Source: Escherichia coli
Lineage (GTDB): Bacteria > Pseudomonadota > Gammaproteobacteria > Enterobacterales > Enterobacteriaceae
Assembly: GCF_044324875.1 (NCBI RefSeq)
Contig: NZ_CP172185.1
DNA length: 64,000 nucleotides
Reading direction: 5' to 3' (one strand)
In this document: positions 32,227-44,366 of the stretch, in pieces
Numbering within the stretch: the stretch's first letter is position 1
Layout: every line of letters starts with the position of its first letter
Notes under the pieces: model-generated
Told to the model about the DNA's origin: nothing
Seen by the model: the letters and a program-made list of their open reading frames with translations, nothing else
Database searches by the model: none
Made by a program: the position numbers and the translations under genes

Positions 32227-32721
32227 GTGAAGATTGATGCATCCCGTCGGGGCATACTCACTGGTCGCTGGCGCAAAGCCAGTAACGGTATCCGTCCGCC
32301 CTGGTCCGGTGATGAATCTCATTTTCTGACCCATTGCACCCGCTGCGACGCCTGTATTAATGCTTGTGAAAACAACATTCTGCAACGCGGCGCGGGCGGC
32401 TATCCGAGCGTTAACTTCAAAAATAACGAGTGCAGCTTCTGTTACGCCTGCGCGCAGGCTTGCCCCGAATCGCTATTTTCTCCGCGCCACACCAGGGCCT
32501 GGGATTTGCAGTTCACCATTGGGGACGCGTGCCTGGCGTATCAGTCAGTTGAATGCCGCCGCTGTCAGGATAGCTGTGAGCCAATGGCAATTATCTTTCG
32601 CCCGACGCTCTCCGGGATCTACCAGCCGCAACTTAATAGCCAACTTTGCAACGGATGTGGAGCATGTGCAGCCAGCTGTCCGGTATCAGCCATAACTGCG
32701 GAGTATCTCCATGCACACTAA
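32227..32721 (+). CDS. napF: Ferredoxin-type protein NapF
   Basis: 164 aa; multiple CxxCxxCxxxCP 4Fe-4S motifs. Confidence 0.93.
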   Translation: MKIDASRRGILTGRWRKASNGIRPPWSGDESHFLTHCTRCDACINACENNILQRGAGGYPSVNFKNNECSFCYACAQACPESLFSPRHTRAWDLQFTIGDACLAYQSVECRRCQDSCEPMAIIFRPTLSGIYQPQLNSQLCNGCGACAASCPVSAITAEYLHAH

Positions 32722-32974
32722 CTGGCAAGTTTGCAGCCTGGTCGTGCAGGCCAAAAGCGAACGAATTTCAGACATCAGCACCCAACTGAACGCCTTTCCC
32801 GGCTGTGAAGTTGCTGTCAGCGACGCGCCGAGCGGTCAGTTGATTGTGGTGGTGGAAGCAGAAGACAGCGAAACGCTGATTCAAACCATTGAGTCAGTAC
32901 GCAACGTAGAGGGCGTGCTGGCGGTGTCGCTGGTTTATCACCAGCAGGAAGAGCAAGGTGAGGAAACACCATGA
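32711..32974 (+). CDS. napD: NapA chaperone NapD
   Basis: 87 aa; overlaps napF and napA ends. Confidence 0.9.
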
Positions 32975-35457
32975 AACTCAGTCGTCGTAGCTTTATGAAA
33001 GCTAACGCCGTTGCGGCCGCTGCGGCGGCTGCCGGTCTCAGCGTGCCGGGCGTTGCCCGCGCCGTTGTTGGTCAGCAGGAAGCCATTAAATGGGATAAAG
33101 CGCCGTGCCGTTTCTGCGGTACTGGTTGCGGCGTTCTGGTCGGAACGCAGCAGGGGCGTGTGGTGGCCTGTCAGGGCGACCCGGACGCACCGGTTAACCG
33201 TGGTCTGAACTGCATTAAGGGCTATTTCCTGCCCAAAATCATGTACGGTAAAGACCGTTTGACGCAGCCGCTTCTGCGTATGAAAAACGGTAAATATGAC
33301 AAAGAAGGCGAATTTACCCCAATCACCTGGGATCAAGCCTTCGATGTGATGGAAGAGAAATTCAAAACCGCCCTGAAAGAAAAAGGGCCGGAATCGATCG
33401 GTATGTTCGGTTCTGGTCAGTGGACTATCTGGGAAGGTTATGCCGCGTCCAAGCTGTTCAAAGCGGGCTTCCGTTCGAACAACATCGACCCGAACGCGCG
33501 TCACTGTATGGCGTCGGCGGTAGTTGGCTTTATGCGTACCTTTGGTATGGATGAGCCGATGGGCTGCTATGACGACATCGAGCAGGCTGACGCGTTTGTG
33601 CTGTGGGGCGCAAACATGGCGGAGATGCACCCGATCCTCTGGTCGCGCATCACTAACCGTCGTCTCTCTAACCAGAACGTTACCGTGGCGGTGCTTTCTA
33701 CCTACCAGCATCGTAGCTTCGAGCTGGCAGATAACGGCATCATCTTTACGCCGCAATCTGACCTGGTGATCCTGAACTATATCGCCAACTATATCATTCA
33801 AAACAATGCGATAAATCAGGACTTCTTCAGCAAACACGTTAACCTGCGCAAAGGGGCGACGGACATCGGCTACGGTTTACGTCCGACCCATCCGCTGGAA
33901 AAAGCAGCGAAGAATCCAGGTTCTGACGCCTCCGAACCGATGAGCTTTGAAGATTACAAAGCCTTCGTTGCCGAGTATACGCTGGAAAAAACCGCCGAAA
34001 TGACTGGCGTACCAAAAGATCAGCTGGAACAACTGGCGCAGCTGTATGCCGATCCGAACAAGAAAGTCATCTCCTACTGGACGATGGGCTTCAACCAGCA
34101 TACTCGTGGCGTGTGGGCCAACAACCTGGTCTACAACCTGCACCTGCTGACCGGCAAAATTTCCCAGCCGGGTTGCGGTCCGTTCTCCCTGACCGGGCAG
34201 CCTTCCGCGTGTGGTACTGCGCGTGAAGTGGGCACCTTTGCTCACCGTCTGCCTGCGGACATGGTGGTGACTAACGAGAAACATCGTGATATCTGCGAGA
34301 AGAAGTGGAATATCCCGAGCGGCACCATTCCGGCGAAAATCGGTCTGCACGCGGTAGCACAAGACCGTGCGCTGAAAGACGGCAAGCTGAATGTTTACTG
34401 GACCATGTGTACCAATAACATGCAGGCCGGGCCGAACATCAATGAAGAGCGTATGCCGGGCTGGCGCGATCCGCGCAACTTTATCATCGTTTCCGATCCG
34501 TATCCGACAGTCAGTGCGCTGGCCGCCGACTTGATCCTGCCGACCGCAATGTGGGTAGAGAAAGAGGGGGCTTACGGTAACGCCGAACGCCGTACTCAGT
34601 TCTGGCGTCAGCAGGTACAGGCACCGGGCGAAGCGAAATCGGATCTCTGGCAGTTAGTCCAGTTCTCCCGCCGCTTCAAAACTGAAGAAGTATGGCCGGA
34701 AGAGCTGCTGGCGAAGAAACCGGAACTGCGTGGCAAAACGCTGTACGAAGTTCTGTATGCCACCCCGGAAGTGAGCAAATTCCCGCTATCCGAACTGGCG
34801 GAAGATCAGCTGAACGATGAATCCCGCGAGCTGGGCTTCTATCTGCAAAAAGGGCTGTTCGAAGAGTACGCATGGTTTGGTCGTGGTCACGGTCACGATC
34901 TGGCACCGTTCGATGATTACCACAAAGCACGCGGTCTGCGCTGGCCGGTAGTGAACGGTAAAGAAACGCAGTGGCGTTACAGCGAAGGTAACGACCCATA
35001 CGTGAAAGCGGGCGAAGGCTACAAGTTCTACGGTAAACCGGATGGCAAAGCGGTGATCTTCGCGCTGCCGTTCGAACCGGCGGCGGAGGCACCGGATGAA
35101 GAGTACGACCTGTGGCTCTCTACCGGACGCGTCCTGGAGCACTGGCATACCGGCAGTATGACTCGCCGTGTACCGGAACTGCACCGTGCCTTCCCGGAAG
35201 CGGTCCTGTTTATTCACCCGTTGGATGCGAAAGCGCGCGATCTGCGCCGTGGCGACAAAGTGAAAGTGGTTTCTCGCCGTGGCGAAGTGATCTCGATTGT
35301 CGAAACGCGCGGTCGTAACCGTCCGCCGCAGGGCCTGGTGTACATGCCGTTCTTCGACGCCGCACAGCTGGTTAACAAACTGACGCTGGATGCGACCGAT
35401 CCGCTCTCGAAAGAGACGGACTTCAAGAAGTGCGCGGTCAAACTGGAGAAGGTGTAA
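32971..35457 (+). CDS. napA: Periplasmic nitrate reductase catalytic subunit NapA
   Basis: 828 aa; twin-arginine signal ([19 protein letters not shown]); molybdopterin oxidoreductase. Confidence 0.97.
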
Positions 35458-42763: not shown

Positions 42764-43317
42764 AGCGCAAAGTATTGTTAATTCCTTTGATTATTTTCCT
42801 GGCGATTGCCGCGGCGCTGCTGTGGCAGCTGGCGCGTAATGCCGAAGGGGATGATCCGACCAATCTGGAATCGGCGCTCATTGGCAAGCCCGTGCCGAAG
42901 TTTCGCCTCGAATCACTGGACAATCCGGGGCAGTTTTATCAGGCGGATGTTCTGACTCAGGGCAAACCGGTGCTGCTTAACGTCTGGGCGACCTGGTGTC
43001 CGACCTGCCGTGCGGAACATCAATATCTGAATCAGCTTTCTGCGCAGGGCATCCGCGTGGTCGGCATGAACTATAAAGACGATCGCCAGAAGGCAATCAG
43101 CTGGCTGAAAGAGCTGGGCAATCCTTACGCACTAAGCCTGTTTGATGGCGACGGCATGTTAGGACTGGATCTCGGTGTCTATGGCGCGCCAGAAACGTTC
43201 CTCATCGACGGCAACGGCATCATTCGCTATCGCCATGCGGGCGATCTCAATCCTCGCGTCTGGGAAGAAGAGATCAAGCCGCTGTGGGAGAAATACAGTA
43301 AGGAGGCCGCACAATGA
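42760..43317 (+). CDS. ccmG: Thiol:disulfide interchange protein CcmG (DsbE)
   Basis: 185 aa; thioredoxin motif WCPTC. Confidence 0.95.
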   Translation: MKRKVLLIPLIIFLAIAAALLWQLARNAEGDDPTNLESALIGKPVPKFRLESLDNPGQFYQADVLTQGKPVLLNVWATWCPTCRAEHQYLNQLSAQGIRVVGMNYKDDRQKAISWLKELGNPYALSLFDGDGMLGLDLGVYGAPETFLIDGNGIIRYRHAGDLNPRVWEEEIKPLWEKYSKEAAQ

Positions 43318-44366
43318 GGTTTTTATTGGGCGTGCTGATGCTGATGATCTCCGGCTCAGCGCTGGCGACCATCGACGTGTTGCAGTTTAAGGATGAAGCG
43401 CAGGAGCAGCAGTTCCGCCAACTCACTGAAGAACTACGCTGCCCGAAATGCCAGAACAACAGCATTGCCGATTCCAACTCGATGATTGCCACCGACCTGC
43501 GCCAGAAAGTGTATGAACTGATGCAGGAAGGTAAAAGTAAGAAAGAGATTGTCGATTATATGGTGGCGCGTTACGGCAACTTCGTCACTTACGATCCGCC
43601 GTTAACGCCGCTGACCGTGCTGCTGTGGGTGCTTCCGGTAGTGGCTATTGGCATTGGAGGTTGGGTCATTTACGCCCGTTCGCGGCGTCGGGTACGCGTG
43701 GTGCCGGAAGCGTTTCCTGAACAAAGCGTGCCGGAAGGTAAGCGTGCCGGATATGTTGTTTATCTGCCGGGTATTGTGGTGGCGTTAATTGTGGCTGGCG
43801 TCAGCTACTACCAGACTGGCAATTATCAGCAGGTGAAAATCTGGCAGCAAGCCACGGCACAGGCTCCGGCGTTGCTGGACAGGGCGCTGGATCCGAAAGC
43901 CGATCCGCTCAACGAAGAAGAGATGTCGCGCCTTGCGCTGGGGATGCGTACTCAACTGCAAAAAAATCCGGGAGATATAGAAGGCTGGATTATGTTGGGC
44001 CGCGTTGGCATGGCGCTGGGTAACGCCAGTATCGCCACCGATGCATACGCTACTGCGTATCGCCTCGATCCGAAGAACAGCGATGCTGCACTGGGATACG
44101 CTGAAGCGTTGACACGTTCATCTGATCCCAACGACAACCGCCTCGGCGGTGAACTGCTACGTCAGCTGGTGAGAACGGATCATAGTAATATTCGTGTGTT
44201 AAGCATGTACGCGTTTAATGCCTTTGAGCAGCAGCGATTTGGCGAAGCCGTTGCCGCGTGGGAGATGATGTTGAAACTCTTACCTGCCAACGATACTCGC
44301 CGTGCAGTGATTGAACGTAGTATCGCGCAGGCGATGCAACATTTGTCGCCGCAGGAGAGTAAATAA
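43314..44366 (+). CDS. ccmH: Cytochrome c-type biogenesis protein CcmH (fused CcmH/CcmI)
   Basis: 350 aa; LRCPKC motif; C-terminal TPR-like region. Confidence 0.93.
   Translation: MRFLLGVLMLMISGSALATIDVLQFKDEAQEQQFRQLTEELRCPKCQNNSIADSNSMIATDLRQKVYELMQEGKSKKEIVDYMVARYGNFVTYDPPLTPLTVLLWVLPVVAIGIGGWVIYARSRRRVRVVPEAFPEQSVPEGKRAGYVVYLPGIVVALIVAGVSYYQTGNYQQVKIWQQATAQAPALLDRALDPKADPLNEEEMSRLALGMRTQLQKNPGDIEGWIMLGRVGMALGNASIATDAYATAYRLDPKNSDAALGYAEALTRSSDPNDNRLGGELLRQLVRTDHSNIRVLSMYAFNAFEQQRFGEAVAAWEMMLKLLPANDTRRAVIERSIAQAMQHLSPQESK

What the first reader, a model, noticed from the sequence alone, without database searches (positions are those of the whole stretch)
32227..44366. Fifteen-gene napFDAGHBC-ccmABCDEFGH cluster with pervasive start/stop overlaps
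Nearly every junction overlaps or is within about 10 bp (napF/D, D/A, G/H, H/B ATGA, ccmA/B, C/D, D/E, E/F, F/G, G/H), consistent with a single translationally coupled unit. All diagnostic motifs are present (Tat signals on NapA/NapG, CxxCH haems in NapB/NapC, WWD motifs in CcmC/CcmF, CxxC in CcmG, LRCxxC in CcmH). This is an intact, well-known system and nothing about it looks anomalous.
Basis: partly seen in the sequence, partly recalled or inferred. Interest (0 to 1): 0.15.

Follow-up and report, generated by a model that had tools for sequence, protein, structure and literature searches.

The report
Known E. coli nap-ccm operon
This is the ordinary, intact Escherichia coli gene cluster for the periplasmic nitrate reductase and the machinery that attaches haem to c-type cytochromes; it is nearly identical to the copy in laboratory strain K-12 and holds nothing new.

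Summary
Window 32227-44366 (+) holds 15 intact genes, napFDAGHBC-ccmABCDEFGH. Their lengths and junctions match E. coli K-12 MG1655 (98.1% nt identity, 8 of 4,043 residues differ). At least 80% of the region is present in 5,417 of 5,426 complete E. coli genomes.

Ten of 14 junctions overlap: eight by 4 nt (ATGA), one by 11 nt, one by 14 nt. The other four are gaps of 6, 9, 12 and 41 nt, so "within about 10 bp" fails only at ccmB/ccmC. Overlaps are more frequent than at other co-directional gene pairs in the window (10/14 vs 6/27, Fisher p = 0.006).

CcmH passes the Pfam CcmH and TPR_CcmH_CycH models instead.

The upstream control region carries the ModE, Fnr and NarP/NarL sites at the published spacing. 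From 32020 to the napF start it is identical to K-12. One strong bidirectional terminator follows ccmH and is shared with the convergent narP gene.

Translational coupling is plausible but only inferred. The weakest ribosome-binding sites are at ccmA (GTG start) and ccmC, both non-overlapping junctions.

Verdict: already known, low interest.

The parts
32005..32028 (.). ModE operator-like site CGCTATATA-N-TTTATAACC in the napF control region, centre 32016.5
   Evidence: Read directly from the sequence. Its centre lies 69 bp upstream of the Fnr site centre, matching the published -133.5/-64.5 positions (own knowledge: McNicholas & Gunsalus 2002, cited in PMC8139620). There is one substitution relative to K-12, at 32019.
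32079..32092 (.). Fnr site TTGATcctgCTACA, centre 32085.5
   Evidence: Read from the sequence and identical to K-12. Fnr activation of napF is described in PMC9262595.
32098..32113 (.). NarP/NarL 7-2-7 heptamer pair TACCCCG-AT-CGGGGTA, centre 32105.5, 20 bp from the Fnr centre
   Evidence: A perfect inverted repeat in the sequence, identical to K-12. Competition between NarP-P and NarL-P at this promoter is described in PMC9262595.
32134..32150 (+). Inferred napF core promoter: overlapping -10 elements TAATAT and TATCTT, with the inferred P1 transcription start near 32150 and a leader of about 77 nt
   Evidence: Inference. Position 32150 is the +1 that places all three operator centres at their published coordinates of -133.5, -64.5 and -44.5 (own knowledge). 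It was not detected by the consensus scan, as expected for an activator-dependent promoter.
32227..32721 (+). napF, cytoplasmic ferredoxin-type protein (GTG start, 164 aa, 16 Cys)
   Evidence: NCBIfam TIGR00402 248 bits against a cut-off of 102. No aa differences from K-12.
32711..32974 (+). napD, chaperone that binds the NapA signal peptide (87 aa)
   Evidence: NF007840 168 bits against a cut-off of 113. Pfam NapD.
32971..35457 (+). napA, molybdoenzyme catalytic subunit with a Tat signal (828 aa)
   Evidence: TIGR01706 1655 bits against a cut-off of 931. Matches PDB 2NYA (E. coli NapA) at 1887 bits over residues 37-828. SRRSFMK and CRFCGTGC motifs present.
35464..36159 (+). napG, periplasmic Tat-exported ferredoxin (231 aa)
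   Evidence: NF007012 416 bits against a cut-off of 269. RRRFLR motif and 16 Cys.
36146..37009 (+). napH, membrane quinol dehydrogenase ferredoxin subunit (287 aa)
   Evidence: NF007013 470 bits against a cut-off of 234. No solved homologue beyond generic ferredoxin domains.
37006..37455 (+). napB, dihaem cytochrome c subunit (149 aa)
   Evidence: NF008609 328 bits against a cut-off of 230, covering 1-149 of 149, which supports the 37006 start over the upstream ATG at 36985. 2 x CLQCH.
37465..38067 (+). napC, membrane tetrahaem quinol dehydrogenase (200 aa)
   Evidence: NF007906 463 bits against a cut-off of 349. 4 x CxxCH.
38080..38703 (+). ccmA, ABC ATPase (GTG start, weak SD, 207 aa)
   Evidence: NF010061 332 bits against a cut-off of 195. 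Walker A motif present; SD duplex only -3.3 kcal/mol.
38700..39362 (+). ccmB, ABC permease (220 aa)
   Evidence: TIGR01190 315 bits against a cut-off of 156.
39404..40141 (+). ccmC, haem-handling WWD protein (245 aa)
   Evidence: TIGR01191 282 bits against a cut-off of 186. Full-length match to PDB 7F02 chain C at 545 bits. WGTWWVWD motif present.
40138..40347 (+). ccmD (69 aa)
   Evidence: TIGR03141 67 bits against a cut-off of 26.
40344..40823 (+). ccmE, periplasmic haem chaperone (159 aa)
   Evidence: NF009635 322 bits against a cut-off of 264. His130 in HDENY.
40820..42763 (+). ccmF, haem lyase subunit (647 aa)
   Evidence: TIGR00353 1013 bits against a cut-off of 569. Pfam Cytochrom_C_asm plus CcmF_C. 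PDB 6ZMQ 316 bits. WGGWWFWD motif present.
42760..43317 (+). ccmG/dsbE, thioredoxin-like thiol:disulfide oxidoreductase (185 aa)
   Evidence: NF011941 422 bits against a cut-off of 359. CPTC motif present.
43314..44366 (+). ccmH, an enterobacterial fusion of a CcmH domain and a CcmI-like TPR domain (350 aa)
   Evidence: Pfam CcmH over residues 7-130 (170 bits) and TPR_CcmH_CycH over 173-330 (204 bits). LRCPKC motif present. No NCBIfam model passed its cut-off.
44372..44396 (.). Bidirectional intrinsic terminator hairpin shared by ccmH and the convergent narP gene
   Evidence: An 11-bp stem with 7 G-C pairs and T-runs on both strands. Fold energy is -24.9 kcal/mol on the + strand and -20.4 kcal/mol on the - strand. 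It is the only strong terminator-like site between napF and narP.
44401..45048 (-). narP, the response regulator that activates the napF promoter; adjacent and convergent
   Evidence: NF007708 457 bits against a cut-off of 343, with residues 11-225 of the longest ORF matching 1-215 of the model. Annotated in H1.

Best explanation
The region is the canonical E. coli aeg-46.5 locus, napFDAGHBC-ccmABCDEFGH. It is transcribed mainly from the Fnr-dependent, NarP-activated, NarL-antagonised and ModE-assisted napF promoter, and it ends at one hairpin after ccmH. [quoted passage not shown] NapA is the Mo-bisMGD/[4Fe-4S] catalytic subunit, exported by Tat with the NapD chaperone. NapB is a dihaem partner, and NapC and NapGH are quinol dehydrogenases. 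NapF is a cytoplasmic Fe-S maturation factor. The ccm genes make cytochrome c maturation System I: CcmABCD loads haem onto CcmE, CcmF/H act as the haem lyase, and CcmG is the thioredoxin-like apocytochrome reductant. System I is needed to mature the NapB and NapC encoded just upstream. The start/stop overlaps, each with a Shine-Dalgarno sequence inside the preceding gene, most likely let ribosomes pass from one cistron to the next. That would keep subunit synthesis proportional within blocks. Gene identities, intactness, operator sequences and the terminator are shown here. Co-transcription and regulation come from the literature. Translational coupling itself is inferred.
For: The region is 99.5% identical over 12.6 kb to an annotated E. 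coli chromosome. At least 80% of it is present in 5,417 of 5,426 complete E. coli genomes. The annotation of 15 genes transfers one-to-one. Against K-12 all gene lengths and junctions are the same, nucleotide identity is 98.1%, and only 8 aa differ among 4,043, which indicates strong purifying selection. Fourteen of 15 proteins score above curated NCBIfam cut-offs, most against equivalog models; CcmH passes both Pfam models. All catalytic and targeting motifs are present. The proteins match solved structures: E. coli NapA 2NYA, E. coli CcmABCD 7F02, and CcmF 6ZMQ. The operator sites sit at 69-bp and 20-bp spacings and are K-12-identical from 32020 to napF. There is a single strong terminator, at 44372-44396. 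SD duplex energies at the 15 starts average -7.0 kcal/mol against -2.5 kcal/mol for background positions, Mann-Whitney p = 1e-8. The literature states that nap and ccm share one anaerobically induced operon (PMC10937671; PMC3893208) and that Fnr, NarP and NarL control napF (PMC9262595; PMC8139620).
Against: Nothing contradicts the identification. For the coupling part, no expression data are available here. Four junctions do not overlap. ccmA (GTG start, -3.3 kcal/mol) and ccmC (-3.0 kcal/mol) have poor SD sequences. A secondary ccmA promoter inside napC is reported in the literature (own knowledge, not readable here), so the 15 genes are not strictly a single unit.
Confidence: 0.97

Rival explanations
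1. nap and ccm are two functionally separate operons that merely abut. The ccm genes would be expressed mainly from their own promoter inside napC, and the nap-to-ccm junction would not be a coupled one.
For: The napC/ccmA junction is a 12-nt gap. ccmA has a GTG start and the second-weakest SD of the cluster. In Vibrio natriegens ccm is a separate operon with its own predicted promoter, away from the nap genes (PMC10937671). A ccmA promoter within napC has been reported (own knowledge: Tanapongpipat et al. 1998).
Against: There is no terminator-like hairpin of any strength between napC and ccmA, and no + strand sigma-70 consensus match anywhere in the cluster. The literature describes ccm as part of the same anaerobically induced operon as nap. 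The two views are compatible if there is read-through plus a weak internal promoter.
Confidence: 0.15
2. The start/stop overlaps are a neutral by-product of genome compaction and the ATGA/TGATG mutational landscape. They carry no coupling function, and each cistron is initiated independently at its own SD.
For: Every overlapped start has its own SD of -5.8 to -12.1 kcal/mol, enough for de novo initiation. Four-nt and 1-nt overlaps also occur in unrelated operons in the same window, such as atoS/C, atoA/E, yfaT/A and alkB/ada.
Against: Overlaps are significantly more frequent here than at other co-directional pairs in the window (p = 0.006). They are concentrated within groups of genes whose products form complexes (ccmC-H, napG-H-B, ccmA-B).
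Confidence: 0.25
3. The cluster is a decaying or strain-specific variant, with a pseudogene, rearrangement or horizontally acquired copy that differs from the canonical system.
For: Only 17 of 5,430 matching records reach 99% identity or more; most fall at 95-99%. Differences from the closest genome cluster in ccmE, ccmG and ccmH, which suggests a recombination mosaic.
Against: There are no internal stops or length changes. Only 8 substitutions separate it from K-12, and none falls in a checked motif. GC content of 0.54-0.60 is continuous with the flanks. The flanking genes are collinear with the E. coli core chromosome. Divergence of 1-3% is ordinary between E. coli phylogroups.
Confidence: 0.01

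Closest known systems
E. coli K-12 MG1655 napFDAGHBC-ccmABCDEFGH (b2208-b2194, the aeg-46.5 locus)
   Same: Same 15 genes in the same order, with the same lengths and the same 14 junction distances. Nucleotide identity is 98.1% and 4,035 of 4,043 residues are identical. The control region is identical from the Fnr site to the napF start.
   Different: There are eight conservative or near-conservative substitutions: NapA D578E and V606L, NapH V147L, CcmA E59D, CcmB I53V and I110V, CcmF R476L and S638N. K-12 carries an extra 176-nt BIME/REP insertion and a second hairpin between ccmH and narP. The window has the uninterrupted single hairpin.
E. coli nrfEFG (dedicated haem lyase for the CxxCK haem of NrfA)
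   Same: These are paralogues of ccmF and of the two halves of ccmH. CcmF scores 712 bits on the NrfE model, and the CcmH N-terminus scores 127 bits on the NrfF model. The WWD-coding stretch of ccmF (41483-41602) is 83% identical at the DNA level to K-12 nrfE.
   Different: CcmF and CcmH fall below the NrfE and NrfF curated cut-offs (927 and 159 bits). They sit in the ccm context, not in nrfABCDEFG.
nap and ccm loci of other Gammaproteobacteria (Salmonella; Vibrio natriegens)
   Same: The same Nap and System I Ccm protein families.
   Different: Salmonella is reported to lack napF (PMC8139620). [quoted passage not shown] Many other bacteria have a separate ccmI gene, whereas here it is fused into ccmH (PMC12285233).

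Membership tests
Periplasmic nitrate reductase (Nap), E. coli-type napFDAGHBC | NapA: a molybdopterin oxidoreductase with an N-terminal twin-arginine signal and a [4Fe-4S] Cys motif | tested here: met
   TIGR01706 1655 bits against a cut-off of 931. SRRSFMK at residue 4 and CRFCGTGC at 46. PDB 2NYA 1887 bits.
Periplasmic nitrate reductase (Nap), E. coli-type napFDAGHBC | NapB dihaem and NapC tetrahaem c-type cytochromes | tested here: met
   NF008609 and NF007906 both above cut-off. 2 and 4 CxxCH motifs respectively.
Periplasmic nitrate reductase (Nap), E. coli-type napFDAGHBC | Accessory proteins NapD (chaperone), NapF, NapG and NapH (Fe-S proteins), in the order F-D-A-G-H-B-C | tested here: met
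   Each passes its equivalog model. The order and junctions are identical to K-12.
Periplasmic nitrate reductase (Nap), E. coli-type napFDAGHBC | A napF promoter with a ModE site, an Fnr site and a NarP/NarL 7-2-7 site | tested here: met
   The sites are at 32005-32028, 32079-32092 and 32098-32113. The spacing matches the published centres, and the sequence is identical to K-12 from 32020 onward. Actual binding cannot be tested here.
Periplasmic nitrate reductase (Nap), E. coli-type napFDAGHBC | Nitrate-reducing enzymatic activity and anaerobic, low-nitrate induction | not testable with these tools
   Requires enzyme assays or expression data.
Cytochrome c maturation System I (CcmABCDEFGH) | CcmAB ABC module plus CcmC/CcmD, with the WWD haem-handling motif in CcmC | tested here: met
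   All four pass curated models. Walker A GSNGAGKT is present, and WGTWWVWD is at CcmC residue 119. CcmC gives a full-length match to PDB 7F02_C.
Cytochrome c maturation System I (CcmABCDEFGH) | CcmE haem chaperone with the covalent-haem histidine (H130) | tested here: met
   NF009635 322 bits against a cut-off of 264. HDENY at residue 130.
Cytochrome c maturation System I (CcmABCDEFGH) | CcmF haem lyase with a WWD domain, and CcmH with LRCxxC | tested here: met
   CcmF: TIGR00353 1013 bits against a cut-off of 569, and WGGWWFWD at residue 236. CcmH: Pfam CcmH 170 bits and TPR_CcmH_CycH 204 bits, and LRCPKC at residue 41. No NCBIfam CcmH model passed its cut-off.
Cytochrome c maturation System I (CcmABCDEFGH) | CcmG thioredoxin-like protein with a CxxC active site | tested here: met
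   NF011941 422 bits against a cut-off of 359. WCPTC at residue 80.
Translationally coupled polycistron | Translation of the downstream cistron depends on translation of the upstream cistron | not testable with these tools
   Only the sequence prerequisites are shown: 10 overlaps, each with an SD inside the upstream gene.

The most novel reading that the evidence does not exclude
The overlap pattern may be structured rather than uniform. Unbroken runs of overlaps (napF-D-A, napG-H-B, ccmA-B, ccmC-D-E-F-G-H) are separated by non-overlapping junctions. The two junctions with the largest gaps (napC/ccmA at 12 nt, ccmB/ccmC at 41 nt) also carry the two weakest ribosome-binding sites, and ccmA has a GTG start. 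These boundaries could act as translational step-down points. They would set different synthesis rates for the abundant Nap subunits, the CcmAB ATPase module and the CcmC-H haem-delivery/lyase module, all from one mRNA.
Probability: 0.3. Interest if true: 0.15.

Novelty: already known. Interest (0 to 1): 0.04.

Why it matters
It matters very little as a discovery. The locus has been characterised genetically, biochemically and structurally since the 1990s, and this copy is a near-identical allele. Its value is as a positive control for the scan: the first-stage reader placed 15 genes, their exact boundaries and their diagnostic motifs correctly from raw sequence alone. The one mildly useful point is that the weak-SD, non-overlapping junctions coincide with the boundaries between functional modules. 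Existing E. coli ribosome-profiling data could test that.

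Tried and rejected
1. Rfam scan of 31000-46000 at E <= 1. Nothing lies inside the cluster; the only hit is a REP-derived naRNA4-like element at 31208-31306, between mqo and eco.

2. Sigma-70 and terminator consensus scan. It found no + strand promoter-like site in the whole cluster, so it gave no lead on the internal ccm promoter. The internal terminator-like hits number 18, against 16.2 +/- 4.4 expected by chance.

3. Self-BLAST of the cluster against the window. There are no internal repeats.

4. The second megablast 'place' per genome raised the possibility of a second ccm copy. 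It turned out to be the paralogous WWD-coding stretch of nrfE: 120 nt at 83% identity, with similar short hits to a plasmid-borne nrfE-family gene.

5. Primary literature on the napF promoter and the ccmA promoter (PMC2632075, PMC193976, PMC1219697, PMID 9716493). None is held in the library, and the search for 'ccmA promoter' was unproductive. The operator coordinates and the internal promoter therefore rest on my own knowledge plus the internal consistency of the spacings.

6. The longer alternative starts for napB (ATG 36985) and ccmC (TTG 39380). Both were rejected, because the family models and K-12 annotation fit the shorter forms end to end.

7. I did not run cross-genus scans of the large collections, because the cost was not justified for an ordinary locus.

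Full report
**Observation**

Listing ORFs over 31000-46000 and translating the proposed genes shows 15 uninterrupted + strand reading frames.

A megablast of 32000-44600 against all complete E. coli genomes finds the region at 80% coverage or more in 5,417 of 5,426 genomes. The best match is 99.5% identical (E. coli O158:H23 CFIAFB20140388). That genome's RefSeq annotation transfers one-to-one as napF, napD, napA, napG, napH, napB, napC, ccmA-F, dsbE (= ccmG) and ccmH.

K-12 MG1655 has the same genes with identical lengths and identical junction distances. Across the 15 genes the window is 98.1% identical to K-12, with 230 nucleotide differences but only 8 amino-acid changes in 4,043 residues. 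The cluster is intact and under strong purifying selection.

GC content (0.54-0.60) is continuous with the flanks. The whole window is collinear with the E. coli core chromosome, running yfaA ... ato ... rcs ... ompC ... ada-alkB ... yojI-mqo-eco | nap-ccm | narP-yejO-proL ... mepS.

**Junctions**

Distances in nt, with negative values meaning overlap:

| Junction | Distance |
|---|---|
| napF/D | -11 |
| napD/A | -4 |
| napA/G | +6 |
| napG/H | -14 |
| napH/B | -4 |
| napB/C | +9 |
| napC/ccmA | +12 |
| ccmA/B | -4 |
| ccmB/C | +41 |
| ccmC/D | -4 |
| ccmD/E | -4 |
| ccmE/F | -4 |
| ccmF/G | -4 |
| ccmG/H | -4 |

- "Within about 10 bp" fails clearly only at ccmB/ccmC.
- For a local baseline I used the annotated co-directional pairs elsewhere in the same 64 kb. 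Six of 27 overlap, and 3 of 27 overlap by 4 nt.
- The cluster gives 10/14 and 8/14, with Fisher p = 0.006 and 0.003.
- The enrichment is real but unsurprising for a large operon that encodes multi-subunit complexes.

**Identity of the proteins**

- Fourteen of the 15 proteins exceed the curated NCBIfam cut-off of the expected model, and 12 of those models are equivalogs.
- CcmH reaches only an NrfF paralogue model, below its cut-off, in NCBIfam. It passes Pfam CcmH (residues 7-130) and TPR_CcmH_CycH (173-330). This shows the enterobacterial CcmH-CcmI fusion.
  - twin-arginine motifs in NapA (SRRSFMK) and NapG (RRRFLR);
  - 2 CxxCH in NapB and 4 in NapC;
  - WWD motifs in CcmC (WGTWWVWD) and CcmF (WGGWWFWD);
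  - CPTC in CcmG and LRCPKC in CcmH.
- Also present are the CcmE haem-binding His130, the CcmA Walker A motif, and the polyferredoxin Cys clusters of NapF, NapG and NapH.
- NapA matches the solved E. coli NapA (2NYA) over residues 37-828. CcmC gives a full-length, near-identical match to chain C of the E. coli CcmABCD cryo-EM structures (7F02 and related). CcmF matches 6ZMQ.
- NapH has no solved relative beyond generic ferredoxin domains.

**Control elements**

The 405-nt eco-napF spacer contains three operator-like sites:

- a ModE-type operator, CGCTATATA...TTTATAACC, at 32005-32028;
- an Fnr site, TTGATcctgCTACA, at 32079-32092;
- a perfect NarP/NarL 7-2-7 pair, TACCCCG-AT-CGGGGTA, at 32098-32113.

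Their centres (32016.5, 32085.5, 32105.5) are 69 bp and 20 bp apart. That equals the spacing of the published -133.5, -64.5 and -44.5 positions. Those positions are from my own knowledge of Darwin & Stewart 1995, McNicholas & Gunsalus 2002 and Stewart et al. 2003, none of which was readable here.

The spacing places P1 +1 near 32150, with a leader of about 77 nt. From 32020 to the napF start the window is identical to K-12.

Papers I could read confirm several points:

- Fnr and NarP-P activate napF, and NarL-P antagonises (PMC9262595).
- ModE activates and IscR represses nap (PMC8139620).
- The ccm genes belong to the same anaerobically induced aeg-46.5 operon (PMC10937671; PMC3893208).

Downstream, the only strong terminator-like structure is an 11-bp G+C-rich hairpin at 44372-44396 with T-runs on both strands. 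It lies in the 34-nt gap between ccmH and the convergent narP gene. narP encodes the operon's own activator.

**Mechanism**

The functional logic is established knowledge. System I Ccm proteins mature the c-type cytochromes NapB and NapC encoded immediately upstream, so co-expression from one anaerobic, nitrate-responsive promoter makes sense.

- All 15 starts have above-background anti-SD complementarity: mean -7.0 against -2.5 kcal/mol, p = 1e-8.
- Every overlapped start has its SD inside the preceding gene. That fits both termination-reinitiation and facilitated de novo initiation.
- The two weakest sites are ccmA (GTG, -3.3 kcal/mol) and ccmC (-3.0 kcal/mol). They lie at the two largest non-overlapping junctions.
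- The 15 genes therefore look more like several coupled runs (napFDA, napGHB, ccmAB, ccmCDEFGH) than one unbroken chain.
- To my knowledge a weak secondary ccmA promoter inside napC has also been reported (Tanapongpipat et al. 1998). It is not readable here, and the consensus scan gave no + strand candidate.

**Comparison and novelty**

This is the K-12 locus in a different E. coli lineage. The closest paralogous system is nrfEFG. The second megablast "place" seen in most genomes is simply the WWD-coding stretch of nrfE, which is 83% identical over 120 nt to ccmF 41483-41602.

Other Gammaproteobacteria differ in composition or linkage. Salmonella lacks napF (PMC8139620), and Vibrio natriegens keeps ccm in a separate operon (PMC10937671).

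Nothing here is new. The verdict is "already known", with interest 0.04.

Noticed in passing
window 31954-32118 (-): The small ORF yojO (54 aa; annotated in K-12 as the uncharacterised protein YojO) lies on the opposite strand. Its 5' half covers the ModE, Fnr and NarP operators of napF. A promoter-like site on the - strand (TTGAGA-16-CATAAT, 32194-32167) sits inside the napF leader. It matches no Pfam or NCBIfam family. Five nt differences from K-12 give 2 aa changes (Y34H, D40N), and all five fall in the 3' two-thirds of the ORF. The part overlapping the nap operators is invariant. The conservation therefore looks due to the regulatory DNA rather than to a protein.
   Followed up: partly
window 44367-44400, compared with K-12 L002 3149-3358: The ccmH-narP spacer is 34 nt here, with one bidirectional hairpin. 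K-12 has 210 nt: the same hairpin, then a BIME/REP pair, then a second diverged copy of the hairpin. This is a REP-element insertion polymorphism that appears to have duplicated the terminator.
   Followed up: partly
window 31184-31332 (mqo-eco spacer): A single REP/BIME unit lies here, with an Rfam naRNA4 (RF02564) hit at 31224-31306 scoring 49 bits, below the gathering threshold. K-12 has a 714-nt tandem array of about six such units at the same site, so the REP copy number varies between strains.
   Followed up: partly
window 45368-47959 (+): The autotransporter gene yejO is an intact 863-aa ORF here and in the closest genome. In K-12 it is a pseudogene split by IS5K.
   Followed up: no
window 41483-41602 (ccmF WWD region): Five E. 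coli plasmid records carry matches. The one listed (NZ_CP048307.1) has an 86-nt hit at 88% identity to this stretch, annotated as an nrfE/CcmF-family haem lyase, so a CcmF/NrfE-family gene travels on at least one E. coli plasmid.
   Followed up: no
window ~19319-19344 (rcsB/rcsC area): The megablast alignment to the closest genome breaks here. There is a 25-nt gap in the window against an 89-nt overlap in the subject, which suggests a small repeat or indel polymorphism between rcsB and rcsC.
   Followed up: no
H1 genome region corresponding to window ~56-57 kb (yejE): yejE is annotated as frameshifted in the closest genome, CFIAFB20140388. I did not check whether the window's copy is intact.
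   Followed up: no
window 40344-44366 (ccmE, ccmG, ccmH): Differences from the closest genome are clustered: 18, 11 and 16 nt in ccmE, ccmG and ccmH, but none in napF, napD, napA, napB, napC, ccmA or ccmC. This is the mosaic pattern expected from homologous recombination among E. coli lineages.
   Followed up: no
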